Assembly (NCBI GenBank): GCA_944367495.1 | Contig: CALVWP010000004.1 | Coordinates: forward strand, 6,202 to 70,201 | Reading direction: 5' to 3' | From: an uncultured Bacilli bacterium | GTDB lineage: Bacteria > Bacillota_I > Bacilli_A > RF39 > UBA660 | DNA length: 64,000 nt | Part shown: positions 500-43,215 of the stretch, piece after piece | Numbering within the stretch: position 1 is the stretch's first letter | Layout: each line of letters opens with the position of its first letter | Translations under genes and position numbers: made by a program | The notes under the pieces: model-generated | What the model was told of the DNA's origin: nothing | Database searches by the model: none | What the model saw: only the letters and a program-made list of their open reading frames with translations

Positions 500-735
500 G
501 TCATTTTTTCCACAGTAAAAATATTCATTAAATTTATACACATTTAATATCCACATCAATTTTCATTATATTATAAACTAAATTTTTCATTTTTCAACAT
601 ATGTGTAAAAAAATAAAATATACACAAAAGTGCAAAAGTTTTTTTCCACAATTTATGTGGAAATCTAACACAAATCCAAATATTTCGACAAAAAACGGTT
701 GTTTAAAACTTTTTTGACTTTTTCCACAGTTTTTA
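500..735. promoter_or_regulatory. oriC DnaA-box cluster upstream of dnaA, with TTTTCCACA boxes at 506-514, 642-650 and 720-728 and a reverse-oriented TTTCCACAT-like box at about 655-663
   Basis: Repeated 9-mers close to the DnaA-box consensus TTATCCACA lie in an AT-rich non-coding region between rpmH and dnaA. Confidence 0.7.
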
Positions 736-798
736 TAGAAAAAAATGTAAATTTATTGTAAAATGAATATGTAGATTGTTTAATGTGGGGGTAGTAGT

Positions 799-2139
799 AT
801 GGATTTAGAAAACATGTGGTCTGTTTTTTTGTCTAAAATTGAAATAAAATTAAAACCCGTTTTATTTCAAACTTGGTTTCAAGACACTAAATTAATTGAT
901 TTAAATAACGAATTTGCCATAGTTGAAGTTCCATTAGATGTACACAAAAAACATTTAAGTGAAAATTATGGAGAAATAATAAAAGAAACCTTTATGGAAG
1001 TTACTGGATCAATCTTTAAATTTAAATATGTAACACCAGATGAAATAAATGAAGAAAAAATAGAAAATATAAATGATAATAATGATGCAATTTTTGAAAG
1101 TGGATTAGATAATAAATATACTTTCGATAATTTTGTATCAGGTGAAAGCAATAAATTTGCTAAAGCTATTGCTCTAGCCGTAGCCGAAAAACCGGGAGCT
1201 ATGTATAACCCACTTTTCATATATGGTAATAGTGGTCTTGGAAAAACACATTTAATGCATGCGATTGGAAATTACATTATGGCCACATCAAATAAAAAAG
1301 TCTTATATGTTACAAGTGAAAAATTTGTAGATGATTTTTTAAATATTTATAGAAAAAGTGAAACAAGTAATTTCAAAGCTGTGGATAATTTTAAAAAGAA
1401 ATACCGTGACATTGACGTTTTAATGATTGACGATATTCAATATTTAGAAATTGCCAGTAAAACTCAGCAGGAATTTTTCAACACCTTTAACGAATTACAC
1501 AATAAAAATAAACAAATAATTATTTCATCAGATAGATCACCTGACGATTTAAAAAAATTAGAAGATAGACTTAGAACAAGATTTAATTGGGGATTAACAA
1601 TCGATATTTTACCACCAGATTTCGAACTTAGAATGAAAATATTAAACAAAAAAATTGAAGCACAAGGTATTGGTAGTTATGTGCCTGAAGAAGTTAAAGA
1701 ATACATTGCTAATAACTGTCGCACCGATATAAGAAAACTAGAAGGTGCTTTAACTAGAGTATTTGCTTACGCAACAATAATGAATGGTTCAGAAATTACC
1801 TTAGAACTTGCCATAGAATCATTAAAAGATTATATAGGTAAAAATGTCATTTCAAGAAATAAAATAGATCAAGTCATTCAATTAGTAGCCAATAATTATA
1901 ATATTACTGTCGATGACATTAAATCTAAAAAAAGACTCTCAAAAATAGCTGTTCCAAGACAAATAGGCATGTATATCTGTAGGGTTCATCTAAAAGAATC
2001 ATTGCCCAAAATAGGTAGTGAATTTGGTGGTAAAGACCATACTACCGTTATGCATTCCGTTGCCAAAATAAAAAGAGAGTTAAAAAAAGATAAAAATTTA
2101 GAAGTAGAAATTTCAAAAATTATAAATCAAATAAAATAG
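799..2139 (+). CDS. dnaA: Chromosomal replication initiator protein DnaA
   Basis: 446 aa. AAA+ Walker A motif GNSGLGKTHL, C-terminal DnaA-box binding domain, canonical position. Confidence 0.97.
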   Translation: MDLENMWSVFLSKIEIKLKPVLFQTWFQDTKLIDLNNEFAIVEVPLDVHKKHLSENYGEIIKETFMEVTGSIFKFKYVTPDEINEEKIENINDNNDAIFESGLDNKYTFDNFVSGESNKFAKAIALAVAEKPGAMYNPLFIYGNSGLGKTHLMHAIGNYIMATSNKKVLYVTSEKFVDDFLNIYRKSETSNFKAVDNFKKKYRDIDVLMIDDIQYLEIASKTQQEFFNTFNELHNKNKQIIISSDRSPDDLKKLEDRLRTRFNWGLTIDILPPDFELRMKILNKKIEAQGIGSYVPEEVKEYIANNCRTDIRKLEGALTRVFAYATIMNGSEITLELAIESLKDYIGKNVISRNKIDQVIQLVANNYNITVDDIKSKKRLSKIAVPRQIGMYICRVHLKESLPKIGSEFGGKDHTTVMHSVAKIKRELKKDKNLEVEISKIINQIK

Positions 2140-2204
2140 TGTAAAAAAATAAGTTATCAACAATTTTTCAACACCATATAAGTCCTTAAAAAACAATATA
2201 AACA

Positions 2205-2275
2205 TCTACTTTTCCACACTTATCCACACTTATAATAAAAATAAACTATTAAATAAACAAAAAGGAGGAAACAAT
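2205..2275. promoter_or_regulatory. dnaA-dnaN intergenic DnaA boxes (TTTTCCACA at 2210-2218, perfect TTATCCACA at 2220-2228) followed by an AT-rich candidate unwinding element
   Basis: Tandem boxes are directly followed by the run ATAATAAAAATAAACTATTAAATAAACAAAAA. This resembles the incC part of a bipartite Bacillus-type oriC. Confidence 0.6.
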
Positions 2276-4016: not shown

Positions 4017-4084
4017 GGTATAGGAGTATGTAAAACACTATAATGATTAAAATAGTAGCACCTAAATAGTAAGTGAGGTAAATC

Positions 4085-5203: not shown

Positions 5204-7125
5204 ACGAAAACAATGAACACTACGATGTCTCCGATATACAAGTTTTAGAAGGCTTAGAAGCTGTTAGAAAAAGACCAGGAATGTATATTGGAACAACTGA
5301 TGTTAAAGGACTTCATCATTTAGTATGGGAAATCGTTGATAACAGTATTGATGAAGCCCTAGCGGGCTTTTGTGATGCGATTGAAATCGTTATCAATAAA
5401 GGTAATTCTATAACTGTAAAAGATAATGGTCGTGGAATTCCTGTGGGAATTCACCCTAAGACAGGCTTATCAACGGTTGAAACTGTTTATACTGTTCTCC
5501 ATGCCGGTGGTAAATTCGGTGGTGGCGGGTATAAAGTTTCTGGTGGACTCCACGGTGTTGGAGCATCTGTCGTTAATGCCTTATCTAGCTGGACTGTTGT
5601 AACAGTTTATCATGGTGGCCAAATCTATGAAGCCAAATTTAAAAATGGTGGACACATTGATCAAAAATTAACTGTTATTGGTGAGTGCGATCCAAATAGA
5701 ACTGGAACAACCGTTACTTTTAAACCAGACGCCGATATTTTTGATACAGATATTTTTGATTATGAAACATTAAAAGTCAGAACTAGAGAATTAGCTTTCT
5801 TAAATAGAGGCTTAAAATTAACTTTAAGAGATGACAGAGATGAAGAAGATACAACTGGAGAAACCTTTCATTATGAAGGTGGAATAAGTGAATATGTTAA
5901 ATATTTAAATAAAAATAAAACGCCAATTCAAAATGATATTATTCACCTAGAAGGTGAAGATGAAGGTGTTTTCTTCGAAGTTGCAATGCAGTACAATACT
6001 GGTTACACAAGTAATATTTATTCTTTTGTAAATAATATCAATACTCATGATGGTGGAACTCATGAAGAAGGAGTTAGAAGAGCTCTAACTAGAGTAATTA
6101 ATAGTTATGCCAGGAAAACAGGCATGTTAAAAGAAAAAGATGATTCATTAAGTGGTGACGATGTTAAAGAAGGCTTAACTATGATTGTTTCTTGTAAACA
6201 TCCAAATCCTCAATTTGAAGGTCAAACTAAGGGACGTTTAGGTAATTCTGAAGTTAGAAAACTAGCTGATAAAGTATTTTCAGAAGGTTTTGAAAGATAT
6301 TTATTAGAAAATCCTGACGAAGCTAAAATTATCATTGAAAAAAATATGACTGCCGCTCGTGCTAGAGTTGCTGCCAAAAAAGCTAGAGAATTAACTAGAA
6401 GAAAAAGTGATTTAGACGTTATAAATTTTGGTGGAAAACTAGTAGATTGTAAAGATAAAGATCCATCAAAATGTGAAATTTTCTTAGTCGAGGGAGATTC
6501 AGCTGGCGGGTCAGCTATAAAAGGTAGAGATTCCATGACTCAAGCTATTTTACCTCTTAGAGGAAAAATTTTAAATGTGGAAAAAGCTAGATTAGATAGA
6601 GCCCTATCTAATGAAGAAATAAGAACAATCATCACGGCTTTTGGTACTGGAATAGGTCAAGAATTTGACTTGAATAAACTAAGATATCATAAAATAATAA
6701 TCATGACCGATGCCGATGTTGATGGTTCACACATTAGAGTATTATTACTTACCCTATTTTATCGTTTCTTTAGACCTATTATTGAAGCTGGGCATGTCTA
6801 TGCCGCTCAGCCACCACTTTTCTGCATTAAACATGGAAAAACTATTAAATATGTCTTAAACGAAGAGGAAAGAGATTCATATCTAGCTTCTTTAAACCCA
6901 AATACTAAATATGATTTAATGCGTATGAAAGGTTTAGGTGAAATGGATGCTGAAGAATTAAATGAAACAACCATGGACATAAATACAAGAGTTCTTAGAA
7001 AAATCACACTAGACGATGTTATGGCAGCCGATGAAGCATTTTCAAAACTTATGGGAGAAGAAGTTGCACCAAGAAGAAAATTTATCGAAGAAAATGCTGT
7101 TTATGCTGAAACAATAGATGTATAG
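5200..7125 (+). CDS. gyrB: DNA gyrase subunit B
   Basis: 641 aa. GHKL ATPase and Toprim motifs. Overlaps the recF stop. Confidence 0.97.
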
Positions 7126-7135
7126 GAGGTAACAT

Positions 7136-9586
7136 ATGGATCACACAAGAGATAGATTAGAAGAAAATAATATAGTTAATGAAATTGAAAGCTCATTTAT
7201 TGAATATTCCATGAGTGTTATTAAGTCAAGAGCGCTTCCAGATTTGCGAGACGGACTTAAGCCTGTACATCGTCGTATATTATATTCAATGTATGAATCT
7301 GGTTACACTCCAGATAAACCACATAAGAAAAGTGCGCGTATAGTTGGAGATGTCATGGGTAAATATCACCCACATGGTGATTCAAGTATCTATGAAGCTA
7401 TGGTTCGTATGGCTCAAGATTTTAGCTATCGTTACATGTTAGTTGATGGTCACGGTAACTTTGGAAACATTGAAGGTTACGGTGCCGCAGCCATGCGTTA
7501 TACTGAATCAAGATTATCAAAAATTTCTTTAGAGTTATTAAGAGATATTAATAAAAACACAGTGGATTTTGTTCCAAACTTTGACGAATCTGAAAAAGAA
7601 CCATCTATTCTACCATCTAGATTTCCAAATATATTAGTAAATGGTACCATGGGAATTGCCGTTGGTATGGCAACAAATATTCCACCACATAACTTAGGGG
7701 AAGTAATTGACGGTTGTATCGCCTATATAGATAATCCAGATATAGATGTGGATGGCTTAATGCATTATATCAAAGGGCCAGATTTTCCAACTGGTGCGAC
7801 AATATTAGGTAATAGTGGTATCAAAAAAGCTTATGAAACCGGCCGTGGAACAATCACCATTAGAAGTAAAGCTACCATTGAAGAAAAAAATGGTCGTCAT
7901 TATATAATTATCGACGAAGTGCCTTATGGTGTAAATACTTCAGATTTAAAGGACAAAGTTGCCGAACTAGTTCATACAAAAGTAATTGATGGTATTTCCG
8001 ATTACCACACAGATTTAAAAAATGGCATTAAAATAACCATTACCTTGAAAAAAGATGCCAATCCTCAAGTTGTTTTAAATAACTTATATAAACATACTCA
8101 GTTTCAAACAACATATGGAATTATTCTTTTAATGTTAGATAATAACACACCAAGAACATTAGGATTAAAAAAAATTATATCTAAATACATTGATTATCAA
8201 AAGGAAGTAATTATTCGAAGAACAAAATTCGACTTAGATAAAGCCGAAAAAAGAGTTCACATTTTAGAAGGGTATAAAATAGCTTTAGATAATATTGATG
8301 ACTTTATCAAAATTATCAAAGAAGCTAAAACTGATACCGAAGCTAAAGCTAAATTAGTAGAAAAATATAAATTAACAGAAACCCAAGCAGAAGCTATACT
8401 TGAATTAAAATTACGTAGATTAACTGGTTTAGAAAGAGAAAAAATAGAATCTGAATTAAAAGATTTATTAGAAAAAATAAAATATTATAATGAAATTCTT
8501 GCTTCAGAAGCCAAAGTGCTAGAAATAATTAAAAAAGAAATGTTAGAAATAAAAAATAAATATGGCGATGAAAGAAGAACAAACATCGATATGACAGCTA
8601 TTGATTATATTGAAGATGAATCATTAATTCCTGTGGAAAACATCGTAGTAACTTTAACCAATAAAGGTTATATTAAAAGAATGACCAGTGAAACATATAA
8701 AGCTCAAAATCGTGGTGGAGTTGGTATCAAAGGAATGACCACCAACGAAAATGATTTTGTGGAAAAAATCATCTCCATGACCACCCATGATTATCTAATG
8801 TTCTTTACCAATAAGGGTAAAGTTTACAGAGTAAAAGGTTATGAAATTCCGCAATATAGTCGTCAATCGAAAGGTCTTCCAATCATAAATCTTCTTCCTT
8901 TTGAAAAAAATGAAGAAGTAACAGCCATGTTAAAAATCAATCAAAATGAAGACAGCCATAATATTGTATTTTGTACACAAAACGGTCTAATAAAAAGAAC
9001 AGCCATAGAAGAATTCAAAAATATAAGAAAAAGTGGAAAAATAGCTATTTCTTTAAAAGATGACGATCAATTAATATCTGTCAAAAAAACAACTGGTGAA
9101 AATGAAATCGTTATTGCCGCCTCAAATGGTCGCATGATTAGATTTAATGAGCAAGAAATTAGAATAATGGGTAGATCAGCATCAGGTGTAAAAGGAATAG
9201 AATTAGGTAATGCCAAATGTGTTGGATGTGAAATTGCCGATTCTAATAGTCAAATATTAGTTGTAACAGAAAAAGGCTATGGAAAACGTACAAACATCAA
9301 CGAATACCGTATGACCCATCGTGGAAGTAAAGGAGTAAAAGCCTTAAATATAACTGACAAAAACGGAAACATAGTATCATTTAAAATAGTAAACGGCGAT
9401 GAAGATCTTATGATAATAACAAACAGCGGAATCATTATCAGACTTCCAATTGAACAAATTTCTACAACAGGTAGAATTGCTCAAGGAGTAAGATTAATTA
9501 ATTTAAAAGATAATCAAACTGTTAGTAGTATTGCCTTATTGTCTAAAGAAGAAGCTGACGAAGATCAAGATAATTTAGAAAATTAA
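7136..9586 (+). CDS. gyrA: DNA gyrase subunit A
   Basis: 816 aa. Active-site region AAMRYTE and C-terminal beta-pinwheel repeats. Confidence 0.97.
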
Positions 9587-9589
9587 CTA

Positions 9590-9607
9590 ATGTTTCACGT
9601 GAAACAT
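9590..9607. promoter_or_regulatory. parS site 1 (4 bp after the gyrA stop)
   Basis: Exact ATGTTTCACGTGAAACAT. Confidence 0.8.
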
Positions 9608-9615
9608 TGGATCAA

Positions 9616-9651
9616 AGACTGTAATAATTTAGTTTGTTACAGTCTTTTTTC
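9616..9651 (+). terminator. Rho-independent terminator downstream of gyrA
   Basis: 9-bp stem AGACTGTAA/TTACAGTCT with a 12-nt loop followed by TTTTTT. It lies between parS copies 1 and 2. Confidence 0.6.
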
Positions 9652-9663
9652 ATAAAAAAAGCT

Positions 9664-9681
9664 ATGTTTCACGTGAAACAT
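9664..9681. promoter_or_regulatory. parS site 2
   Basis: Exact palindrome. Confidence 0.8.
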
Positions 9682-9774
9682 AGCTACAAATGAATTAAAA
9701 TCGCAACAAACATATAAAATAGTATAATTTATATAAAGTTTAAAGAACTAAAAATAATGTAATTTGTATTTTCA

Positions 9775-9792
9775 ATGTTTCACGTGAAACAT
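9775..9792. promoter_or_regulatory. parS site 3
   Basis: Exact palindrome. Confidence 0.8.
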
Positions 9793-9845
9793 TGAACTAA
9801 ACTCCAAATAATTTATAAGATTCAATCATTTTTATAAAAACACCT

Positions 9846-9863
9846 ATGTTTCACGTGAAACAT
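9846..9863. promoter_or_regulatory. parS site 4
   Basis: Exact palindrome. Confidence 0.8.
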
Positions 9864-10078
9864 AGAAATAAAAAGATAAAAAAATGTAGAAATAAATAAC
9901 CATATTTAAAAGATTTTTACATTTATAAGGACAAAGAATAAAACACTTTATAAATAATATATTAATTAGAAATATTAAAAGTATAGAATTTTTTAATTTT
10001 GTTACAAGAAAAATTATTGTTAAAATAATCTTATTCACTTTAATATATTTTATAATAAAATATTTTTCCACAGCAGTA

Positions 10079-10096
10079 ATGTTTCACGTGAAACAT
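10079..10096. promoter_or_regulatory. parS site 5, immediately preceded by the DnaA-box 9-mer TTTTCCACA at 10064-10072
   Basis: Exact palindrome. Confidence 0.8.
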
Positions 10097-10209
10097 AGTA
10101 ATAAAAAAGTAATGAAACATCAAATATTCTTAAACATTTAAATTTATTAAAAGAAATGGTGTTATGGTAATATTTTATAAATACCGCCTATGCTTTTAAA
10201 AGTTATCCG

Positions 10210-10227
10210 ATGTTTCACGTGAAACAT
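10210..10227. promoter_or_regulatory. parS site 6
   Basis: Exact palindrome. TTATCCGAT precedes it. Confidence 0.8.
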
Positions 10228-10442
10228 TGCTAAAATTAGTATAAATAATTATAAAATCATTAAAAATGTTTATATTATTAAGAGAAAAAGTTAAAAATAT
10301 AGAAGATTTAATATAATTTAAAGAAAATAAATATAATAAAATTAAGTAGTAAAATTATTATGTTTATTCTATATTATTAAAATAGCATTGCTTACTTTAA
10401 ATATCTCTAGTTTTTATATAAAAATATTTTTCCACAGCAGTA

Positions 10443-10460
10443 ATGTTTCACGTGAAACAT
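10443..10460. promoter_or_regulatory. parS site 7, preceded by TTTTCCACA at 10427-10435
   Basis: Exact palindrome. Confidence 0.8.
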
Positions 10461-10574
10461 AGTGATAAAAAAGTAATGAACACCAAATCTTCTTAAAACA
10501 TTTAAATTTATTAAAAGAAAAAATAATTATGGCAATATTTTATAAATACTGTCTATGCTTTTAAAAGTTATCCA

Positions 10575-10592
10575 ATGTTTCACGTGAAACAT
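10575..10592. promoter_or_regulatory. parS site 8
   Basis: Exact palindrome. TTATCCAAT precedes it. Confidence 0.8.
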
Positions 10593-10745
10593 TAGACTAG
10601 AAAGCACAAAAATAAAGCAGCAAACAAAAACCACATAGCTCAAAAGAAAATATGCTAAAATATATCTTATGTTTTGAATGATGGTTTAAAGTAACTCTAA
10701 TATAATTAATAAATCAAAAAATAAGTTTATTTTATCTATATCAGC

Positions 10746-10763
10746 AATGTTTCACGTGAAACA
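10746..10763. promoter_or_regulatory. parS site 9
   Basis: Exact palindrome. Confidence 0.8.
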
Positions 10764-10980
10764 TTGCTAAAAATTAGTATAAATAATTATAAAATCATTA
10801 AAAATGTTTATATTATTAAGAGAAAAAGTTAAAAATATAGAAGATTTAATATAATTTAAAGAAAATAAGTATAATAAAATTAAGTAGTAAAATTATTATG
10901 TTCATTCTATATTATTAAAATAGCATTGCTTACTTTAAGTATCTCTAGTTTTCATATAAAAATATTTTTCCACAGCAGCA

Positions 10981-10998
10981 ATGTTTCACGTGAAACAT
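10981..10998. promoter_or_regulatory. parS site 10, preceded by TTTTCCACA at 10966-10974
   Basis: Exact palindrome. Confidence 0.8.
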
Positions 10999-11112
10999 AG
11001 TGATAAAAAAGTGATGAACACCAAATTTTCTTAAAACATTTAAATTTATTAAAAGAAAAAATAATTATGGCAATATTTTATAAATACTGTCTATGCTTTT
11101 AAAAGTTATCCA

Positions 11113-11130
11113 ATGTTTCACGTGAAACAT
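11113..11130. promoter_or_regulatory. parS site 11
   Basis: Exact palindrome. Confidence 0.8.
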
Positions 11131-11230
11131 TGATGTAAAAAGATACTAAAAAAATATAAAAATATTTAAAATAGTTATTTTATTATAAAACATATGAAAT
11201 AAATTTGAAATAGTTTGCCAAATTAATCTA

Positions 11231-11248
11231 ATGTTTCACGTGAAACAT
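11231..11248. promoter_or_regulatory. parS site 12, followed by a reverse-oriented DnaA-box 9-mer (TGTGGAAAA at 11266-11274)
   Basis: Exact palindrome. Confidence 0.8.
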
Positions 11249-11320
11249 TGGTACAAAAAAATACTGTGGAAAAAGCCAAAAACTATTGAAAAAAAATAAA
11301 AAATATTATATTATATCAAT

Positions 11321-11393
11321 GGTACAACACTTATGGCTGAACCAGGTCAGAATCGGAAGATAGCAGCCTTAAAGCCCTCTAAGCGTGTGTACC
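11321..11393 (+). ncRNA. ffs: Signal recognition particle RNA (small 4.5S-type scRNA)
   Basis: The conserved domain IV motif ACCAGGUCAGAAUCGGAAGAUAGCAGCC is present. Terminal helix GGUACA...UGUACC, followed by U6. The position is immediately upstream of tadA-dnaX. B. subtilis has scr between tadA and dnaX, so the placement here is shifted by one gene. Confidence 0.75.
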
Positions 11394-11412
11394 TTTTTTG
11401 TAGGTGATTTAT

Positions 11413-11826
11413 ATGAATGAATATATGCTTCTAGCACTCAAAGAGGCTAAAAAAAGTTTAAAAACAGATGATATACCAATAGGCGCAGTAATTGTAGAAA
11501 ATGATAAAATAATAGCTAAAAGCCATAATACAAGAGAAAAAACAAACATAATTACAAAGCATGCTGAAATAAACGCCATTGAAAAAGCTTGTAAAAAGAA
11601 AAAAACATGGCATTTAGATGAATGTGTACTTTATACAACATTAGAACCATGTCCTATGTGCTTAGAAGTAATCAAACAAGCTAGAATCAAAACAGTTTTT
11701 TATTGTGCAAAGCAAACCAAACAAATAAATTATAAAGAAATTAAATTTATTAAAATAGAAGATGTGGAAAACTATAGTGATTTATTGAAAAAATTCTTCA
11801 AAAATAAAAGAAAAAAAATAAAATGA
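11413..11826 (+). CDS. tadA: tRNA-specific adenosine deaminase
   Basis: HAEINAI and PCPMC zinc-binding motifs. Start moved to the ATG 6 nt after an AGGTGA RBS (the ORF track starts at 11404). Confidence 0.88.
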   Translation: MNEYMLLALKEAKKSLKTDDIPIGAVIVENDKIIAKSHNTREKTNIITKHAEINAIEKACKKKKTWHLDECVLYTTLEPCPMCLEVIKQARIKTVFYCAKQTKQINYKEIKFIKIEDVENYSDLLKKFFKNKRKKIK

Positions 11827-11956
11827 TGCGCATTAGAACAAAAAACATTTTTATCACATAAAAAATGTGGAAAACTATTCACAATATACATTAAAAAATC
11901 ATTTTAATCTTATTTAACTAATAAATATGATATAATAAACAAGTAGAGGTGGTAAA

Positions 11957-13660
11957 ATGTATCAAGCCTTATATCGAAAATATAGGCCAAAAACATTAGA
12001 TGATGTATGTGGTCAAGACATAATCGTTAAGATAATTAAAAATTCTATCATAAATGGTCAAATAAATCATGCTTACTTGTTTGCTGGTCCTAGAGGTACT
12101 GGAAAAACCAGTGTAGCTAAAATATTTGCTAAAATAATAAACTGTGAAAATCCCAAAGATTGCCAACCTTGTGGAAAATGTATAAGTTGTACTCAAGAAA
12201 ATAACAGTGATATTATTGAAATTGATGCCGCCAGCAACAATGGTGTTGATGAAATTAGAGAGTTAAAAAATAAAGTTAATCTTTTGCCAGCCTATGGTAA
12301 ATATAAAGTTTATATAATAGACGAAGTTCATATGCTAACTCAAGGTGCATTCAATGCCCTCTTAAAAACATTAGAAGAACCGCCAGAACATGTTATTTTT
12401 ATACTAGCTACCACCGATCCTCATAAAGTCATTGAAACTATATTATCTAGATGTCAACGCTTAGATTTCAAAAAAATAAGTATAAATGACATAGTTAAAA
12501 ATTTAACCAAAATTGCTAAAAAAGAAAAAATTGATATAAACCAAGATGCTATTATAGAAATTGCTAAACAGTCTGACGGTGGAATGCGCGATTCAGTAGG
12601 TTTGTTAGATCAAGCAAGAGCCTATACCGAAAGTAAAATAACTATAAAAGATATACATGATATTACAGGGACATTAACCGAAGAAGATTTAGTCGATATA
12701 TTAGAAAGTATTATTGATGAAAAATTAGATATAATTTTGGAAAAAATTGATAAATTCAATGATCAAGGAAAAAATTTTATTAAATTAATCGAAGAAATGA
12801 TTAATTTTTCAAGAAATATTATTTTATTCAAAGAAGCTCCAAATTATTTTAAAGAAAAAAATGAAAATATAGAAATATATGAACAACTTTCAAAAAAAAT
12901 TACCATCAGTAAGCTATTTAATATAATAGAAATATTAAATAAATATTCTTTTGAAATGAAAAACACAAGTAATAGCAAATTATTATTTGAATTAGCATTT
13001 ATAAAAATAATTTCTGAAAAGAGCAATCAAAATGTGGAAAAATTAGCCGAAAATCCTCAAAAAAATAATGGCAAAGAAAAGCAAATTATTTCATTATCAA
13101 AAGAAAGTGAAAAAAATGAAAAAATCCAGCCAAAAAGCGAACAAAAACCAAACAAAAATCAAGAATCAACACCTAAAAATCATATAAAAAATATCAAAGA
13201 AAACGAAAAAATAAAAGAATTAAAAAAAATAAGAATAGATAACACCCTCGCCTATTTTAATAAACAAGAAATGCGCTCAATTATTCAAAAACTCGAAAAA
13301 TTAAATGACTTATTATTAAATCCAGATTATAGTCATGCTGCCTCTATTTTGTTAGATGGTACCCTAAAAGCTGCTAGTGATAAGTATCTGATATTTATAT
13401 ATAAAACAGATAGATTATCAAACTTATTCAATGAAAATTTATTGGTTTTAGAAGAAACTATTGCCAAAATACTAAATAAAAAATATAATTTAATTGCAAC
13501 TGATATAAACGAATGGGAAACAATAAAAAATGAATTCAATAAAAAATTAAGATCCTTTGTTTATAAAGAAGAACCATATAAACTTGAAGATATTTTCAAA
13601 AACGATGAAAATACTGATAATATTCAATCTATGTTTGAAGATATCATAGAATATAATTAA
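11957..13660 (+). CDS. dnaX: DNA polymerase III subunits gamma/tau
   Basis: 567 aa. GPRGTGKTS Walker A motif, zinc module CQPCGKCISC, and dnaX-ybaB-recR synteny. Confidence 0.95.
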   Translation: MYQALYRKYRPKTLDDVCGQDIIVKIIKNSIINGQINHAYLFAGPRGTGKTSVAKIFAKIINCENPKDCQPCGKCISCTQENNSDIIEIDAASNNGVDEIRELKNKVNLLPAYGKYKVYIIDEVHMLTQGAFNALLKTLEEPPEHVIFILATTDPHKVIETILSRCQRLDFKKISINDIVKNLTKIAKKEKIDINQDAIIEIAKQSDGGMRDSVGLLDQARAYTESKITIKDIHDITGTLTEEDLVDILESIIDEKLDIILEKIDKFNDQGKNFIKLIEEMINFSRNIILFKEAPNYFKEKNENIEIYEQLSKKITISKLFNIIEILNKYSFEMKNTSNSKLLFELAFIKIISEKSNQNVEKLAENPQKNNGKEKQIISLSKESEKNEKIQPKSEQKPNKNQESTPKNHIKNIKENEKIKELKKIRIDNTLAYFNKQEMRSIIQKLEKLNDLLLNPDYSHAASILLDGTLKAASDKYLIFIYKTDRLSNLFNENLLVLEETIAKILNKKYNLIATDINEWETIKNEFNKKLRSFVYKEEPYKLEDIFKNDENTDNIQSMFEDIIEYN

Positions 13661-13678
13661 TAGAAAGAAGGAATAAAA

Positions 13679-13975
13679 ATGAATATACAAGCTATGATGA
13701 AACAAGCTCAAAAATTACAAAATGATATGTTAAATGAAAAAAAGCAAATTGATGAAAAAACATTTGAAGGACATTCTTCCATTGTTACTGTAAAAGTTAA
13801 AGGGACAAAAGAAGTCAGCGAAGTAAAAATAGACGCAGAAAAATTGGAAAAAGATGATATAGAAATGCTAGAAGACATGATTTTAGTTGCTATAAACGAT
13901 GCTAATCATCAAATTGACGAAGAAACTGAACGCAAAATGGGTAAATATACTAAAGGAATGCCAGGTCTTTTCTAA
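13679..13975 (+). CDS. ybaB: Nucleoid-associated protein YbaB/EbfC
   Basis: 98 aa. Typical YbaB N-terminus MNIQAMMKQAQKLQ. Lies between dnaX and recR. Confidence 0.9.
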   Translation: MNIQAMMKQAQKLQNDMLNEKKQIDEKTFEGHSSIVTVKVKGTKEVSEVKIDAEKLEKDDIEMLEDMILVAINDANHQIDEETERKMGKYTKGMPGLF

Positions 13976-14574
13976 TGAATTATCCAAAAACTATATTAAA
14001 TTTAATTGAATGTTTTAAAAAATTTCCCGGTATAGGTGAAAAAACAGCCGAAAGATTAGCTTTAGCAAGCCTAAATATGGATGAAGATATAATAAATCTT
14101 TTTAGCGCTTCCCTAAAAGATGGTAAAGAAAAAATAAAAAAGTGCCAAAAGTGTGGTAGTTTAACTGAAGATGATTTATGCCAAATATGCACTGATTCAT
14201 CTAGAGACATTTCTACTTTATGTGTTGTTGAAGAATGTAAAAATGTAATCTTATTTGAAAAAATAGGATCTTATAAAGGACTATATCATGTATTAGGTGG
14301 TCTAATTTCTCCATTAGATGGCATCAACCCAGAAGATATACATATTGATAAATTAATAGATAGAATAAAAAAAGAAAATATAAAAGAAGTTATATTAGCT
14401 ATAAAACCAAGTGTTGAGGGTGAAACAACCGCTTTATATATTAGAAAAATGTTAGAAGGAACTAATGTAAAAGTTTCTAAAATTGCCCACGGTATACCAA
14501 TGGGTGCTGACATTGATTATATAGATCCTCTAACCCTAGAAATGGCTATCGAAGATCGAACAACAATTTCATAA
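13975..14574 (+). CDS. recR: Recombination protein RecR
   Basis: 199 aa. C4 zinc finger CQKCGSLTEDDLCQIC and a Toprim domain. Confidence 0.95.
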   Translation: MNYPKTILNLIECFKKFPGIGEKTAERLALASLNMDEDIINLFSASLKDGKEKIKKCQKCGSLTEDDLCQICTDSSRDISTLCVVEECKNVILFEKIGSYKGLYHVLGGLISPLDGINPEDIHIDKLIDRIKKENIKEVILAIKPSVEGETTALYIRKMLEGTNVKVSKIAHGIPMGADIDYIDPLTLEMAIEDRTTIS

Positions 14575-14612
14575 AATGACTTTTTTTGCTATATAATTTA
14601 TTGAGGTGTTTC

Positions 14613-14798
14613 ATGCTTAATAAATTATTTAAAATATTCAAAAAATTTATCATGAGTTTTTTCATGCTATACGGTTATAATGTAATTGTCCCAGCCACCG
14701 CTATTATTCCAATTAATTTAATAACTGTATTATTAATCACTCTTTTCAGTATTCCCGCCTTTATTTTTTTAATTGTTATAAGATTAGTTGTATATTAG
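14613..14798 (+). CDS. bofA: Pro-sigma-K processing inhibitor BofA-like small membrane protein
   Basis: IIPINLITV...SIPAFIFLIVIR aligns with B. subtilis BofA HVPINLVTT...GIPGIAALVVIK. The position after recR matches Bacillus. Start moved to the ATG after a GAGGTG RBS (the track starts at a TTG at 14586). Confidence 0.55.
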   Translation: MLNKLFKIFKKFIMSFFMLYGYNVIVPATAIIPINLITVLLITLFSIPAFIFLIVIRLVVY

Positions 14799-14809
14799 GA
14801 GGAATTAAG

Positions 14810-15760
14810 ATGTTAGATAGTTATAAAGGATCACAACCTATCGCATATAAAATTTTAAAAAACGCTATTATAAACGATAAATGTTCTCACGCCTATTTAA
14901 TTGAAACAGGCGGTTTTTATGATTCTTTTGACTTTGTAATGTCTTTTATAAAATCACTCCTTTGTCCATATAATAAAACTCAAAAAGAAGATTGTGGAAA
15001 TTGTCATCAATGTGAGATCATCGATTCTGGAAATTTCCCGGAAATCGAAATCATTGAACCAGATGGTCAGTGGATCAAAAAAGACCAACTTCAAAATTTA
15101 CAAAAAGAATTTAATACTAAAGCTTTAATTGGAAATAAAAGAGTTTATATCATAAAAAAAGCTGATAGATTAAACAAAGCAGCTGCCAATTCCATTTTAA
15201 AGTTTTTAGAAGAACCAGATAATAATATAGTTGCTATTTTAATAACTGATAACATATACAACGTTTTATCGACAATTAGATCAAGGTGTCAAATATTAAA
15301 CTTAAAACCAACTAATATTGCCAAAGAAAACATTTCATGGTTAGAAAAAATAAAACAAATTCTCTTTAATCAAAAAAAAGAACTTCTAGATTTCGAAGAA
15401 ATTGATTTAAAGATTCAAAAAGTTATTGATTTTGTTTGTTATTATGAAAAAAATCATTTAAATACTATTCTTTATATAGGGAAAATATGGAATGATTATA
15501 TAAAAACTAAAGAAGAAATAGATATGTCTTTTGAAATAATGATAAACTATTATAAAGATGTTTTAAATTATATTCTAAATAAACCATTAGAAATATTTGA
15601 AACAAGTAATGAAATAAAAATGATTGCTGAAAAAAACAGTCAAACAGAAATTTGCCGAAAAATTAACGTTTTAGTTGAATTAAAACAATTAATAAAATAT
15701 AATATTAATCAAAGCTTATTAATGGACAAGCTAATTATGCGATTAGAGGAAGTGATATAA
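14810..15760 (+). CDS. holB: DNA polymerase III subunit delta'
   Basis: 316 aa. AAA+-like N-terminus with CGNCHQC zinc module. Follows recR and bofA. Confidence 0.85.
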   Translation: MLDSYKGSQPIAYKILKNAIINDKCSHAYLIETGGFYDSFDFVMSFIKSLLCPYNKTQKEDCGNCHQCEIIDSGNFPEIEIIEPDGQWIKKDQLQNLQKEFNTKALIGNKRVYIIKKADRLNKAAANSILKFLEEPDNNIVAILITDNIYNVLSTIRSRCQILNLKPTNIAKENISWLEKIKQILFNQKKELLDFEEIDLKIQKVIDFVCYYEKNHLNTILYIGKIWNDYIKTKEEIDMSFEIMINYYKDVLNYILNKPLEIFETSNEIKMIAEKNSQTEICRKINVLVELKQLIKYNINQSLLMDKLIMRLEEVI

Positions 15761-16551: not shown

Positions 16552-17257
16552 TTATTTATTGGGTTATGAAAATCTTAAAATAATTCAAGATAATGAAATG
16601 TTTAATTTCTCTTTAGATTCCGTTTTATTACCTAATTTTATTACTATAAATGAAAATGTTAGAAACATATTAGACATAGGTACTGGAAATGCTCCAATAC
16701 CTTTAATACTATCTACAAAAACAAATGCCAATATTATAGGTATAGAAATACAAAAAGAAGTAAGTGAAATGGCTAAAGAGTCAGTAAAAATGAACAATTT
16801 AGAAAATAGAATAACTATAATTAATGAAGATGCCAAAGAATATAGCAAGTCCGCCACTTCAGAATATTTTGATATAATAACTTGTAACCCGCCATATTTT
16901 GAAGTATTAGAAACCTCAAAATTTAATAAAAACGACTATAAAACAATTGCTAGACATGAAGTTAATTTAAATTTAGAAGATATTTTAAAAATAGCGCGAA
17001 AACTTTTAAAAAACGGTGGTACGTTAGGTTTAGTACATAGACCAGAAAGATTAATTGATATTTTAATAACTATGAGAAAATATAACATTGAACCTAAAAA
17101 AATAAGATTAGTTTACCCTAATAAAAATAAAGAGGCCAATATATTATTAATTGAAGGCAAAAAAAATGGTAAAAAGGGATTGAAAATATTACCACCTTTA
17201 TATAGTCATAATAATGATGGCAGTTACACAGATGAAATAAAAAACTATTTTAAGTGA
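16538..17257 (+). CDS. N6-adenine methyltransferase, YabB/TrmN6-like tRNA1(Val) m6A37 MTase
   Basis: 239 aa. NPPY catalytic motif (CNPPYF), SAM-binding glycine-rich region, position before rsmI. Confidence 0.75.
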   Translation: MKVINYLLGYENLKIIQDNEMFNFSLDSVLLPNFITINENVRNILDIGTGNAPIPLILSTKTNANIIGIEIQKEVSEMAKESVKMNNLENRITIINEDAKEYSKSATSEYFDIITCNPPYFEVLETSKFNKNDYKTIARHEVNLNLEDILKIARKLLKNGGTLGLVHRPERLIDILITMRKYNIEPKKIRLVYPNKNKEANILLIEGKKNGKKGLKILPPLYSHNNDGSYTDEIKNYFK

Positions 17258-41564: not shown

Positions 41565-42350
41565 ATGGGAAAAATAATTGCACTTGTCAATCAAAAAGGT
41601 GGAGTTGGAAAAACAACTTCCAGCATTAATTTGGCTGCTTCACTAGGTTATCTAGGAAGAAAAACATTACTAATAGATTTAGACCCTCAGGGAAATAGTA
41701 CAACCGGTTTAGGTATTGACAAAGGTGACATAAAAAAAAGCATATATGATTTATTAACCGATGAAGCTGAGTTAAAAGAAGTAATCAAAAAGACTAAATT
41801 TAAAAACCTATACATTATTCCAGCAACTATAAGCTTAGCTGGAGCAGATTTAGAATTAGCCGAAAAAAGCAAATTGGATCCGACTTTTTCTAAAAATAGG
41901 CAATTAAAAACTAAATTAGAAGAAGTAAAAGAAGTCTTTGATTATATAATCATTGATTGTCCGCCCTCACTAGGACTATTAACAACTAATGCTTTAACAG
42001 CGGCCAACTCAGTTATTATTCCAGTACAGTGCGAATTCTTTGCCCTAGAAGGTATTATGCAACTATTAAATTCAATCATGCTGGCGCAAAAAACATTAAA
42101 CCCAACATTAGATATTGAAGGGGTTTTATTAACTATGCTTGATAATAGAACAAATCTTGGCTTAGAAGTTGTTCAAGATATCAAAAGTTATTTCAAAGAA
42201 AGAGTATATGATACAATAATACCAAGACTAGTGAGATTATCAGAAGCTCCAAGTCATGGTAAACCAATAATAAACTATGATCCTAAAAGTCGCGGAGCAG
42301 AAGCATACATTAATTTAGCAAAAGAGGTGATTTATCGAAATGGAAAATAG
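41565..42350 (+). CDS. soj: Chromosome partitioning ATPase ParA/Soj
   Basis: 261 aa. Deviant Walker A motif KGGVGKTT. Immediately upstream of parB. Confidence 0.95.
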   Translation: MGKIIALVNQKGGVGKTTSSINLAASLGYLGRKTLLIDLDPQGNSTTGLGIDKGDIKKSIYDLLTDEAELKEVIKKTKFKNLYIIPATISLAGADLELAEKSKLDPTFSKNRQLKTKLEEVKEVFDYIIIDCPPSLGLLTTNALTAANSVIIPVQCEFFALEGIMQLLNSIMLAQKTLNPTLDIEGVLLTMLDNRTNLGLEVVQDIKSYFKERVYDTIIPRLVRLSEAPSHGKPIINYDPKSRGAEAYINLAKEVIYRNGK

Positions 42351-43215
42351 AAGAGCTTTAGGAAAAGGCTTAGAACAATTATTTGATTTAGATAATTTAA
42401 ATGTAAATAATGTTGGTGACTTTGAAAAAAACATTTATGAAGATACTAAACATGAAGAAATTGTGGAATTAAACATTGATGATTTAAGACCAAATCCATA
42501 CCAACCAAGAACAATCTTTGATGAAGCAGCATTGCAAGAATTAGCTGAATCAATTAAAGAAAACGGTGTTTTCCAACCAATTATTGTTAAAAAAAGTATC
42601 AAAGGTTATGATGTCATTGCTGGTGAAAGAAGACTTAGAGCTAGTAAAATAGCTGGTAAAAAAACTATACCAGCCATCATTAGGCAAATAAGTGATGAAA
42701 AAATGGCGGAAATTGCTTTACTAGAGAACTTACAAAGAGAAAACTTAAATGCCCTAGAAGAAGCAAAAGCTTATAAAAGTTTAATTGAAAAATTAAATCT
42801 AACTCAAGAAGAGTTAGCCAAAAAAGTAAGTAAAAGTAGAAGTCATATTACTAACATGTTAGGTCTTCTCCGTCTTCCTGGTGAAGTTCAAGACATGATT
42901 ACAACCGGGAAAATAACGATGGGTCATGCTAGAGCTTTAAGTAAATTAGAAGATAAAGAAGAAATTGTGAAAATGGCCACCAACATCACCGAAAAAGGTT
43001 TAACCGTAAGAGATGTTGAAGCGCAAAGTGAAGAGGCCCCTAAAATACATCAAACAAATAGAAAAACAAAAAATAACGAATTTAAATATGTTCAAGATTT
43101 ACTTAGGGAAAAATTAGATACAAAAGTAAAAATAAAAGACAAAAAAATTGAAATATCTTTTACTAACACAGCTGATTTGAATAGAATTTTAGAAATTTTA
43201 AATATAAAGGAGTAA
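42340..43215 (+). CDS. spo0J: Chromosome partitioning protein ParB/Spo0J
   Basis: 291 aa. ParB box GERRLRA, HTH, C-terminal dimerisation region. Overlaps the soj stop. Confidence 0.95.
   Translation: MENRRALGKGLEQLFDLDNLNVNNVGDFEKNIYEDTKHEEIVELNIDDLRPNPYQPRTIFDEAALQELAESIKENGVFQPIIVKKSIKGYDVIAGERRLRASKIAGKKTIPAIIRQISDEKMAEIALLENLQRENLNALEEAKAYKSLIEKLNLTQEELAKKVSKSRSHITNMLGLLRLPGEVQDMITTGKITMGHARALSKLEDKEEIVKMATNITEKGLTVRDVEAQSEEAPKIHQTNRKTKNNEFKYVQDLLREKLDTKVKIKDKKIEISFTNTADLNRILEILNIKE

What the first reader, a model, noticed from the sequence alone, without database searches (positions are those of the whole stretch)
9590..11248. Dense array of 12 perfect parS centromere sites in 1.66 kb beside oriC
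The 18-bp perfect palindrome ATGTTTCACGTGAAACAT occurs 12 times between the gyrA stop and the SRP RNA. Its 16-bp core TGTTTCACGTGAAACA is exactly the palindromic form of the Bacillus parS consensus TGTTNCACGTGAAACA bound by Spo0J/ParB. In B. subtilis and most Firmicutes, parS sites are single copies scattered over the origin-proximal fifth of the chromosome, often inside genes. Twelve identical sites spaced 70-235 bp apart in a non-coding block are therefore highly unusual. Such an array would be expected to nucleate a very large ParB/SMC-loading complex. The cognate soj and spo0J genes lie at 41565-43215 in this window, and no parS lies inside spo0J. The arrangement may serve as a super-centromere or SMC loading platform, or reflect a recent expansion.
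Basis: partly seen in the sequence, partly recalled or inferred. Interest (0 to 1): 0.85.

Follow-up and report, generated by a model that had tools for sequence, protein, structure and literature searches.

The report
Conserved dense parS centromere array
Twelve identical docking sites for the chromosome-partitioning protein ParB are packed into 1.66 kb of non-coding DNA next to the replication origin of an uncultured gut bacterium, and related species all carry such an array at the same spot, so it is a real but not unprecedented bacterial centromere.

Summary
ATGTTTCACGTGAAACAT occurs 12 times at 9590-11248, where chance expects none. All 12 lie between the gyrA stop and the SRP RNA, and no other parS occurs in the 64 kb window.

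It is most likely a chromosomal ParB-loading centromere. The core is the consensus parS. The window's ParB has parS-type specificity residues and CTP-clamp motifs, and ParA is present. oriC lies about 7.4 kb away.

The array is ancient and clade-wide, not a one-off. All 60 complete gyrA-dnaX intervals from related uncultured gut Bacilli carry 2-16 parS at this locus. Spacers between sites are unconstrained. Copy number changes by tandem duplication, and one 384-bp unit with three sites was duplicated recently in the window.

The density, one site per 138 bp, equals the known Myxococcus xanthus cluster of 22 sites in about 3 kb. It is therefore a new member of a known kind, unusual mainly for a member of the Bacilli.

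More novel side findings:
- DnaA boxes sit at a fixed offset from some parS sites.
- In more distant relatives, perfect Noc-binding sites are interleaved with parS.
- In two relatives, parS repeats lie in frame inside dnaX.

ParB binding and SMC loading are untested.

The parts
9590..9607 (.). parS S1. It starts 3 nt after the gyrA stop codon and lies upstream of the gyrA terminator.
   Evidence: Exact 18-bp palindrome. The position of the first site directly after gyrA is conserved in relatives.
9614..9651 (+). gyrA intrinsic-terminator-like hairpin plus U run, between S1 and S2.
   Evidence: RNA fold gives -18.4 kcal/mol with z = -6.5. An equivalent hairpin lies between the first two parS in L001, L005, L007 and L011.
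9664..9681 (.). parS S2, part of a 26-bp perfect palindrome (AGCT flanks).
9775..9792 (.). parS S3, part of a 26-bp perfect palindrome.
9846..9863 (.). parS S4.
10064..10072 (+). DnaA-box consensus TTTTCCACA, 7 nt upstream of the 18-bp parS S5.
10079..10096 (.). parS S5, first site of the oldest copy of repeat unit A.
10210..10227 (.). parS S6, preceded by the degenerate box GTTATCCG.
10210..10593 (.). Source copy of the recent 384-bp segmental duplication, carrying S6, S7 and S8.
   Evidence: About 97% identical to 10747-11131 at an offset of 538.
10428..10436 (+). DnaA box TTTTCCACA, 7 nt upstream of S7.
10443..10460 (.). parS S7.
10575..10592 (.). parS S8.
10747..10764 (.). parS S9, part of a 26-bp perfect palindrome.
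10747..11131 (.). Second copy of the recent duplication, carrying S9, S10 and S11.
10966..10974 (+). DnaA box TTTTCCACA, 7 nt upstream of S10.
10981..10998 (.). parS S10.
11113..11130 (.). parS S11.
11231..11248 (.). parS S12, the last site, 63 nt before ffs.
   Evidence: A terminal site followed by a reverse DnaA box is conserved in L001, L003, L004, L005 and L011.
11265..11273 (-). Reverse-oriented DnaA box (TGTGGAAAA on the + strand) between S12 and ffs.
7136..9586 (+). gyrA, the left boundary of the array.
   Evidence: NCBIfam NF004043, 1171 bits.
11311..11408 (+). SRP RNA (ffs), the right boundary of the array.
   Evidence: Rfam RF00169, 60.1 bits.
41565..42350 (+). parA/soj. Deviant Walker A motif KGGVGKT.
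42340..43215 (+). parB/spo0J, the presumed binder of the array. It has N-terminal LGKGL, GERRLRA and ENLQRE motifs, and helix-turn-helix residues R173, M179, R184 and G201 (Caulobacter numbering).
506..2228 (+). oriC region: DnaA-box clusters at 506-728 and 2210-2228, flanking dnaA (799-2139).

Best explanation
The 1.66-kb block is the chromosomal centromere (the parS cluster) of this organism.

Proposed mechanism:
- Each of the 12 palindromes is a loading site where a dimer of the ParB encoded at 42340-43215 binds through its helix-turn-helix domain.
- The dimer closes into a CTP-dependent clamp and slides onto flanking DNA.
- Twelve loaders within 1.66 kb should build one dense ParB partition complex about 7-9 kb from oriC.
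- ParA/Soj (41565-42350) acts on that complex to segregate the origin region.
- If the organism has SMC-ScpAB, condensin would be loaded from what is effectively a single point.

The array is ancestral to a whole clade of uncultured, AT-rich, small-genome gut Bacilli. It is maintained by selection on the sites themselves, while its copy number turns over by tandem or segmental duplication.

What is shown:
- motif identity, position and conservation;
- the ParB/ParA motifs and specificity residues;
- the duplications.

What is inferred:
- actual ParB binding;
- clamp loading and spreading;
- ParA-driven segregation;
- SMC loading;
- any selective benefit of high copy number.
For: (1) Twelve exact copies of the consensus parS are present where none is expected, and there are none elsewhere in 64 kb. 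The 16-bp core equals the consensus used experimentally, TGTTTCAC-GTGAAACA (PMC7383237).

(2) The ParB is Spo0J-like.
- Its best solved relative is B. subtilis Spo0J 6SDK (212 bits), ahead of Noc 7NFU (162 bits).
- It falls below the NCBIfam Noc cutoff (250 vs 315 bits) and far above the ParB domain cutoff.
- Counted from the conserved Q162, it has R173, M179, R184 and G201. This is the 'RXXG' class that Jalal et al. found to be parS-specific.
- GERRLRA, ENLQRE and the N-terminal LGKGL motif are present.
- 113 of 120 orthologue clusters share RMRG, and all have GERR and ENLQRE.

(3) ParA has the KGGVGKT Walker A motif.

(4) The array is origin-proximal. DnaA-box clusters flank dnaA at 506-728 and 2210-2228.

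(5) The array is conserved across the clade.
- In 80 loci from related genomes (GyrA 72-92% identical), 362 of 370 parS-like sites lie in the gyrA-ffs-tadA-dnaX spacers.
- Six more lie inside dnaX, and only 2 lie elsewhere in about 1.28 Mb.
- All 60 complete intervals have at least 2 sites.
- dnaA synteny is kept.

(6) Selection acts on the sites, not the spacers. Across 363 unique sites, the 18-bp positions are 94-100% conserved, apart from the two tolerated variable positions 5 and 12 (74% and 82%). Information content beyond +/-3 nt is about 0. Spacers of the closest relatives barely align.

(7) Common variants are asymmetric (TGTTCCACGTGAAACA x52, TGTTTCACGTGGAACA x16). They hit the position that the parS consensus tolerates, not positions that would preserve a hairpin.

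(8) A HiFi-assembled complete chromosome (L004, OZ007022.1) has 9 sites at the same locus, so the array is not a short-read artefact.
Against: There is no binding or localisation data, and the organism is uncultured.

Only 64 kb of the source genome was available, plus 8-22 kb from each relative. Other parS sites elsewhere in the genome cannot be excluded, nor can a second ParB-like protein.

Presence of SMC/ScpAB was not testable.

parAB lies 30 kb from the array, and no parS sits in or near parB. This differs from model Firmicutes.

Some of the 12 copies are recent duplicates, so their perfection says nothing about selection.

About a quarter of sites clade-wide carry extended palindromic flanks that co-vary. 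ParB binding alone does not explain this.
Confidence: 0.85

Rival explanations
1. Only one or a few sites matter. The high copy number is a neutral by-product of slippage or unequal recombination in an AT-rich spacer and confers no 'super-centromere' function.
For: Copy number ranges from 2 to 16 among relatives. Many arrays are regular tandem repeats with periods of 36-84 bp and genome-specific homogenised variants. The window has a 97%-identical triple-site duplication. A same-species metagenome contig shows a different unit arrangement. The literature notes that a single parS is often sufficient (PMC7333895).
Against: No genome among the 60 complete intervals has fewer than 2 sites, and 52 of 60 have at least 3. 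Sites with unrelated flanks (S1-S4, S12) are all perfect. Site sequences stay invariant while spacers are randomised. This argues that each site is under purifying selection.
Confidence: 0.3
2. The palindromes act as DNA or RNA hairpins, like REP elements, terminators or cruciform elements, and not as protein-binding sites.
For: Three of the 12 score as terminator-like on the minus strand. Clade-wide, 86 of 359 unique sites have at least 5 extra complementary flank nucleotides on each side, against about 7.5 expected, and those flanks vary in sequence. The hairpins fold at -4 to -10 kcal/mol.
Against: The sequence, not just the pairing, is invariant and equals parS. The commonest variants break the symmetry. 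The motif is confined to one locus rather than dispersed. Most sites lack a T run. The extended palindromy can arise by template-switch 'correction' around a strong palindrome without any function (inference).
Confidence: 0.04
3. The block is a composite regulatory platform in which DnaA, not only ParB, is a key ligand. It would be a DnaA-titrating or DnaA/ParB crosstalk locus, and the parS sites serve replication control as much as segregation.
For: Four exact TTWTCCACA boxes lie in the array. Three are at a fixed 7-nt gap from the 18-bp parS. The same phasing recurs in L001-L005, L007 and L011 with different gap bases, and the box abuts parS in L027, L029 and L052. An unbiased 6-mer scan ranks CCACAG, TCCACA and TTCCAC as the most enriched words next to parS, at 34-113x. 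DnaA binding at the Caulobacter centromere is a documented precedent (PMC6399470).
Against: Only 3-4 of the 12 sites in the window, and about 10-15% of genomes, have the box. The three phased boxes in the window are copies of one duplicated unit. Overall DnaA-box density in arrays (0.64/kb) is not much above the surrounding origin-proximal DNA (0.41/kb). This reading adds to the centromere explanation rather than replacing it.
Confidence: 0.3
4. The array is an assembly artefact or a remnant of an integrated plasmid or phage centromere.
For: Repeats are hard to assemble, and about 19 of the 80 related contigs end within 1.5 kb after gyrA.
Against: The same locus carries arrays in independent assemblies, including a HiFi complete chromosome. 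There are no mobile-element genes in the block. The neighbours are core genes with conserved synteny. There is no similarity to any PLSDB plasmid.
Confidence: 0.01

Closest known systems
Myxococcus xanthus chromosomal parS cluster (22-24 sites; Iniesta 2014, PMC3899335)
   Same: Both are dense origin-region arrays of chromosomal parS. M. xanthus has 22 sites in about 3.05 kb, one per roughly 139 bp. The window has 12 in 1.66 kb, one per 138 bp. M. xanthus ParB was shown to bind its cluster in vitro.
   Different: The phylum differs. The M. xanthus cluster lies about 4 kb upstream of parA, whereas here parAB is 30 kb away and the array sits between gyrA and ffs. The M. xanthus sites are variants around TGTTCCACGTGGAACG, whereas here all 12 are identical 18-mers. 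Binding here is untested.
Bacillus subtilis Spo0J-parS system
   Same: Same 16-bp motif. The closest solved ParB is 6SDK. A Soj-type ParA is present. The gene order dnaA-dnaN-recF-gyrB-gyrA is shared.
   Different: B. subtilis sites are single and scattered over the origin-proximal part of the chromosome, with one inside spo0J. That scattering is described as a peculiarity of Bacilli (PMC8357415). Here all detected sites are packed in one non-coding spacer and none is in parB.
Caulobacter crescentus parS cluster with DnaA boxes (Tran 2018, PMC5815017; Mera 2014 via PMC6399470)
   Same: Several parS lie clustered about 8 kb from ori. DnaA boxes sit within the centromere region, with a proposed replication-segregation crosstalk.
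   Different: Caulobacter has 5-7 sites of unequal strength next to parAB. Here there are 12 identical sites, with boxes at a fixed 7-nt gap from some of them. DnaA binding here is untested.
F-plasmid sopC and similar plasmid centromere repeat arrays
   Same: Multiple tandem binding sites for a ParB-family protein form one partition complex. From my own knowledge, sopC has 12 x 43-bp repeats. Some relatives have strictly periodic arrays of 36-84 bp.
   Different: This is a chromosomal parS motif with a chromosomal ParB. Spacing in the window is irregular (71-234 bp). The array is not adjacent to the par operon and has no plasmid similarity.
Noc-NBS nucleoid occlusion system of Firmicutes
   Same: In more distant relatives, perfect consensus NBS (TATTTCCCGGGAAATA) sits interleaved with parS in the same spacer. 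ParB and Noc are paralogous CTP clamps.
   Different: The window and its close subclade have no NBS, and the window ParB has parS-type residues. Known NBS are spread over the chromosome except near ter (PMC7383237). They are not known in arrays alternating with parS.

Membership tests
Chromosomal parS centromere (Spo0J/ParB type) | 16-bp palindrome matching tGTTNCACGTGAAACa | tested here: met
   12 of 12 sites match exactly, with none expected by chance. The core is identical to the experimental consensus in PMC7383237.
Chromosomal parS centromere (Spo0J/ParB type) | Origin-proximal location | tested here: met
   DnaA-box clusters flank dnaA at 506-728 and 2210-2228. The array starts about 7.4 kb downstream. 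The same synteny holds in 60 relatives.
Chromosomal parS centromere (Spo0J/ParB type) | Cognate ParB with parS-specific recognition residues (R173 and G/S/T/C at 201, not Q173/R201) | tested here: met
   The sequence SKSR...ITNM...LLRL...TMGHAR gives R173, M179, R184 and G201. 113 of 120 orthologue clusters share these residues.
Chromosomal parS centromere (Spo0J/ParB type) | ParB CTP-clamp motifs (GERRxR, ENLQRE) and N-terminal ParA-stimulating LG(K/R)GL motif, plus a Walker-type ParA | tested here: met
   GERRLRA, ENLQRE and ALGKGLEQLF are present. ParA has KGGVGKT. Pfam ParB_N and HTH_ParB domains are detected.
Chromosomal parS centromere (Spo0J/ParB type) | Restriction of the motif to the centromere region, i.e. 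not a genome-wide repeat | tested here: inconclusive
   There are none elsewhere in the 64 kb window. Only 2 of 370 sites lie outside the gyrA-dnaX region in about 1.28 Mb of relatives' flanks, and none lie near parAB in four related contigs. No whole genome could be scanned.
Chromosomal parS centromere (Spo0J/ParB type) | Demonstrated ParB binding or spreading at the sites, and a segregation phenotype | not testable with these tools
   Requires ChIP, EMSA or BLI, or genetics.
ParB-dependent SMC loading site | SMC-ScpAB encoded in the genome, and arm alignment emanating from parS | not testable with these tools
   No SMC is in the window; the 1094-aa ORF at 20964-24248 is Mfd/TRCF. No whole genome or Hi-C data were available.
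Noc-binding site (NBS) cluster | Motif tATTTCCCGGGAAATa and a Noc with Q173/K179/K184/R201 | tested here: not met
   The window has no NBS within 1 mismatch. The window protein has R173/G201 and scores below the NCBIfam Noc cutoff.
Plasmid-type tandem centromere (sopC-like) | Regular head-to-tail repeat units adjacent to the par operon on a mobile replicon | tested here: not met
   Spacing is irregular at 71-234 bp. TRF finds no array-wide period. parAB is 30 kb away. The neighbours are core genes and there is no plasmid similarity.
REP/MITE/terminator hairpin repeats | Dispersed copies, with conservation of pairing rather than of sequence | tested here: not met
   The motif is confined to a single locus. 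The sequence is invariant, and the common variants are asymmetric. Flank covariation exists at a minority of sites.
DnaA-box cluster (DBC/datA-like) | Several consensus DnaA boxes in one intergenic region that bind or titrate DnaA | tested here: inconclusive
   Four exact TTWTCCACA boxes lie in the array, three from one duplicated unit. Their phasing to parS is conserved in the close clade. Binding is untested.

The most novel reading that the evidence does not exclude
The gyrA-dnaX spacer of this clade may be a dedicated 'origin organiser'. Loading sites for the two paralogous CTP clamps, ParB (parS) and Noc (NBS), and boxes for the initiator DnaA would be physically phased. Examples are the NBS - DnaA box - parS triple modules in L027 and L045, the alternating NBS/parS tandem units in L079, L058, L073 and L060, and the DnaA box + parS modules in the window.

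On this reading, replication initiation, origin segregation and nucleoid occlusion or membrane tethering are mechanically coupled at one locus. The window's subclade would have lost the NBS component (and perhaps Noc) and amplified parS instead.
Probability: 0.3. Interest if true: 0.75.

Novelty: new member of a known kind. Interest (0 to 1): 0.45.

Why it matters
Reviews list as open questions why parS copy number varies, why sites cluster, and how centromere regions expand (PMC7333895; PMC5815017). This clade offers a natural series for studying them:
- copy number ranges from 2 to 16 at one fixed locus;
- tandem and segmental duplication is visible;
- variants are homogenised within each genome;
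- selection is visible on the sites but not the spacers.

The array also shows that Bacilli are not uniformly 'scattered-parS' organisms. Practically, these arrays break short-read assemblies just after gyrA, and they mark the origin region in metagenome-assembled genomes of this group.

If the phased DnaA-box and NBS modules are functional, they would be a compact and testable case of coupling between initiation, segregation and nucleoid occlusion.

Tried and rejected
- BLAST of the array against PLSDB plasmids found no match.
- Rfam at gathering and at permissive E-value thresholds found only ffs in the block. The remaining hits were chance microRNA/snoRNA matches far below threshold.
- An ORF scan of the block found only short low-complexity ORFs, several starting at the ATG of the palindrome itself.
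- TRF found no array-wide period.
- Exact-protein look-ups of the window ParB, and of its 100%-identical cluster representative P0001, were not on record, so the source record was not identified. ParA and YbaB look-ups gave only short same-species contigs.
- Livny et al. 2007 (PMC2168934) is not held. The arrangement of the roughly 22 Listeria innocua sites quoted in reviews therefore could not be checked.
- A literature search for the clade name (CAG-710/RF39) found nothing. The GTDB order is not asserted.
- A tblastn search for noc in the relatives' loci found it only in L044. Presence or absence of Noc in the window's subclade is unresolved.
- The single metagenome-contig scan, the structure prediction tools and the RNA-model tools were not used. 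They would not have changed the verdict.
- The Noc/NBS reading of the window array was considered and rejected.
Full report
OBSERVATION

The 18-bp palindrome ATGTTTCACGTGAAACAT occurs exactly 12 times, at 9590-11248. None of 100 dinucleotide-preserving shuffles gave any match.

Allowing two mismatches to TGTTNCACGTGAAACA adds only one weak match, at 1308. None lies in parB.

Start-to-start spacings are 74, 111, 71, 233, 131, 233, 132, 172, 234, 132 and 118 bp.

The block lies between the gyrA stop codon (9586) and the SRP RNA (11311-11408), which is followed by tadA and dnaX. It is about 22% G+C. It has no credible ORF and no Rfam match apart from ffs.

ANATOMY

- S1 starts 3 nt after the gyrA stop codon.
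- A strong terminator-like hairpin with a U run (9614-9651; -18.4 kcal/mol, z = -6.5) separates S1 from S2.
- S1-S4 and S12 have unrelated flanks.
- S5-S11 are built from repeat units. A unit 'A' (two parS 131 bp apart) is present three times. A 233-bp unit 'B' is present twice.
- The segment 10210-10593 (S6-S8) is duplicated at 10747-11131 (S9-S11) with about 97% identity. The older A copy at 10048-10229 is 90-91% identical.
- So three of the 12 sites stem from a recent duplication and two more from an older one.

THE PROTEINS

ORF 42340-43215 is a ParB.
- Pfam detects ParB_N and HTH_ParB domains. TIGR00180 scores 212 bits. The Noc model scores 250 bits, below its 315-bit cutoff.
- Its best solved relative is B. 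subtilis Spo0J (6SDK, 212 bits), ahead of Noc structures (about 160 bits).
- Counting from the conserved Q162 in 'LTQEELAKKVSKSRSHITNMLGLLRLPGEVQDMITTGKITMGHARAL' gives R173, M179, R184 and G201.
- Jalal et al. 2020 showed that parS-specific variants have an invariant R173 and G (or C/S/T) at 201, with almost any residue at 179 and 184. Noc has Q173/K179/K184/R201 (PMC7383237).
- The CTP-binding GERRLRA motif, ENLQRE and the N-terminal LGKGL motif are present.
- Of 120 orthologue clusters (81-100% identical), 113 are RMRG, and all have GERR and ENLQRE.

ParA (41565-42350) has the deviant Walker A motif KGGVGKT.

oriC-type DnaA-box clusters flank dnaA at 506-728 and 2210-2228. The array therefore begins about 7.4 kb from oriC on the right arm.

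COMPARATIVE EVIDENCE

A GyrA-based scan of one genome per species returned 80 loci from uncultured gut Bacilli (GyrA 72-92% identical). They are variously labelled 'Bacilli', 'Tenericutes', 'Clostridium sp. CAG:710', 'Ca. Faecimonas', 'Ca. Onthousia' and 'Ca. Coprovivens'. One is a HiFi-assembled 1.52-Mb chromosome.

parS sites cluster immediately downstream of gyrA in almost all of them. Of 370 sites with at most 2 mismatches:
- 235 lie between gyrA and ffs;
- 28 lie between ffs and tadA;
- 38 lie between tadA and dnaX;
- 61 lie just after gyrA on truncated contigs;
- 6 lie inside dnaX;
- only 2 lie elsewhere in about 1.28 Mb.

All 60 complete gyrA-dnaX intervals (59 relatives plus the window) have at least 2 sites. 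The median is 4.5 and the maximum is 16. The window's 12 is the second highest. dnaA synteny is conserved.

About 19 contigs end within 1.5 kb after gyrA. This is consistent with assembly breaks at the repeats, so the counts are lower bounds.

Across 363 unique sites, the 18-bp element is essentially invariant. The flanking A and T are 98% and 94% conserved, and there is weaker conservation out to CAATGTTTCACGTGAAACATTG. Positions beyond that carry no information.

The spacers of even the closest relatives (GyrA 90-92%) barely align with the window.

Arrays in different genomes have their own periods (36, 39, 44, 54, 62, 64, 74 and 84 bp) and their own homogenised site variants. Examples are 15 x ATGTTCCACGTGTAACAT in L033 and 7 x TGTTTCACGTGAAACT in L008. 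This indicates repeated local amplification.

A same-species metagenome contig (L081) shows a different order of units. That is either strain polymorphism or short-read misassembly.

No parS lies near parAB in four related contigs.

INTERPRETATION

The simplest reading is that this is the organism's chromosomal centromere: a cluster of ParB loading sites near oriC. It was inherited from the ancestor of the clade and has been remodelled by duplication.

The following steps are inferred from established knowledge of ParABS (PMC7333895) and are not shown here:
- ParB nucleation;
- CTP-clamp closure and sliding;
- ParA-driven segregation;
- SMC loading.

A tight cluster behaves as a single SMC entry point. 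Anchimiuk et al. argue that this avoids SMC collisions, which become a problem with dispersed sites (PMC8357415).

Whether 12 sites give any advantage over 2-3 is open. The neutral-amplification rival gets appreciable weight. Against it, no genome has a single site, and sites with unrelated flanks are all perfect.

HOW NOVEL

Dense chromosomal parS arrays are known. M. xanthus has 22 sites in about 3.05 kb, the same density as here, and its ParB binds the cluster (PMC3899335).

Reviews state that one to about 20 sites occur, and that most bacteria cluster them within 5-40 kb. Scattering is restricted to a few lineages including Bacilli.

The array is therefore a new member of a known kind. It is notable for four reasons:
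- it is in a Bacilli lineage;
- it is fixed between gyrA and ffs/tadA/dnaX;
- it is separated by 30 kb from parAB;
- its expansion by duplication is visible.

A Caulobacter Tn-seq hot spot for ectopic parS at recF-gyrB, of unknown cause (PMC5815017), is a curious parallel to this natural location.

SIDE FINDINGS

(a) DnaA boxes. TTWTCCACA occurs 23 times in the window, against about 2 expected.
- Three copies sit 7 nt upstream of the 18-bp parS S5, S7 and S10. A reverse copy follows S12.
- The same box-parS phasing occurs in L001-L005, L007 and L011 with different gap bases. The box abuts parS in L027, L029 and L052.
- An unbiased 6-mer scan ranks the box core as the most enriched word next to parS.

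(b) Noc-binding sites. In more distant relatives, perfect consensus NBS (TATTTCCCGGGAAATA) are concentrated in the same spacers, at 1.08/kb against 0.029/kb outside.
- They often alternate with parS in tandem units. L079 has 8 x 64 bp, L058 has 6 x 84 bp, L073 has 4 x 62 bp and L060 has 3 x 76 bp.
- L027 and L045 carry NBS - DnaA box - parS triple modules.
- The window and its subclade have none.
- L044 encodes a Noc (Q173, K179, R201) between rsmG and dnaA.
- Known NBS are dispersed around the chromosome. I found no description of NBS/parS alternation in the searchable literature.

(c) parS inside dnaX. L026 and L039 carry three parS in frame inside the dnaX linker, read as NV(S/P)RET peptide repeats.

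(d) Extended palindromes. About a quarter of sites are 26-42-bp perfect palindromes whose extra flanks vary in sequence: 86 observed against about 7.5 expected. This fits either template-switch 'correction' around a strong palindrome or selection for extrusion. It remains unexplained.

LIMITS

- There is no whole genome for the source or for relatives beyond the fetched flanks.
- The presence of SMC, and of Noc in the window's subclade, is unknown.
- There is no experimental evidence of binding.
- The taxonomic order is not established from the tools.

Noticed in passing
window 10064-10096, 10428-10460, 10966-10998, 11231-11273; also L001-L005, L007, L011, L027, L029, L045, L052, L078: Consensus DnaA boxes (TTWTCCACA) sit at a fixed short distance from a subset of parS sites: a 7-nt gap from the 18-bp parS in the window and its close relatives, and directly abutting in L027, L029 and L052. 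The gap bases differ between genomes. An unbiased 6-mer scan ranks the box core as the most enriched word next to parS.
   Followed up: partly
L079 3819-4310; L058 12671-13155; L073 2695-2935; L060 12585-12800; L027 12489-12534, 12885-12931, 13305-13350; L045 12697-12744: Perfect consensus Noc-binding sites (TATTTCCCGGGAAATA) are interleaved with parS in the gyrA-downstream arrays of more distant relatives. Some form tandem NBS+parS units and some form NBS - DnaA box - parS triple modules. NBS density is 1.08/kb in these spacers against 0.029/kb outside. The window and its subclade have none.
   Followed up: partly
L026 14456-14561; L039 14376-14487: Three parS sites lie in frame inside the dnaX coding region at a 45- or 48-nt period. 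They are translated as NV(S/P)RET peptide repeats in the DnaX linker.
   Followed up: partly
window 9660-9685, 9771-9796, 10743-10768; clade-wide: Many parS sites are embedded in longer perfect palindromes (26-42 bp) whose extra flanks differ from site to site but stay complementary. 86 of 359 unique sites have at least 5 extra pairs on each side, against about 7.5 expected. The cause is unknown: template-switch correction or selection for extrusion.
   Followed up: partly
L033 12500-14860; L008 12279-12516; L012 12499-12745; L079: Each genome's array is homogenised to its own parS variant. Examples are 15 x TGTTCCACGTGTAACA in L033 and 7 x TGTTTCACGTGAAACT in L008. Each also has its own period, which suggests concerted evolution by tandem amplification.
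   Followed up: partly
L081 1-1400 vs window 9664-11250: A same-species metagenome contig has 9 parS in a different order of repeat units than the window. This is either strain-level structural variation or short-read misassembly.
   Followed up: partly
window 32831-45707; L087, L093-L095: parAB is not next to rsmG/noc upstream of dnaA as in model Firmicutes. It lies about 40 kb downstream of dnaA on the same strand, after ksgA-udg-tilS-ftsH, and is followed by mscS. This synteny is conserved in relatives, and there is no parS nearby.
   Followed up: partly
L044 839-3166: One relative keeps the canonical rsmG-noc-dnaA arrangement. The Noc-like ORF has Q173/K179/R201, a long low-complexity N/S-rich C-terminal extension, and an NBS at 1592 at its 5' end.
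   Followed up: no
L009 12700-14538: An IS200/IS605-type TnpB-like ORF is inserted directly downstream of gyrA, where the other genomes have the parS array. The contig ends before any parS.
   Followed up: no
L006, L030, L042, L043, L067 (record titles): Contigs with GyrA 74-90% identical to this Bacilli clade and carrying the same parS arrays are deposited under Sphaerochaetaceae, Methanobacteriaceae, Lachnospiraceae, Muribaculaceae and Bacteroidaceae bins. These are probably mis-binned contigs.
   Followed up: no
window 1-20000: DnaA-box consensus words are strongly over-represented across the first 20 kb of the window: 21 of the 23 TTWTCCACA matches, against about 2 expected for the whole window. 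Those between dnaN and dnaX are mostly on the minus strand.
   Followed up: no
window 26862-27059: A T-box leader (Rfam RF00230, 120.7 bits) lies upstream of the ORF at 27066.
   Followed up: no
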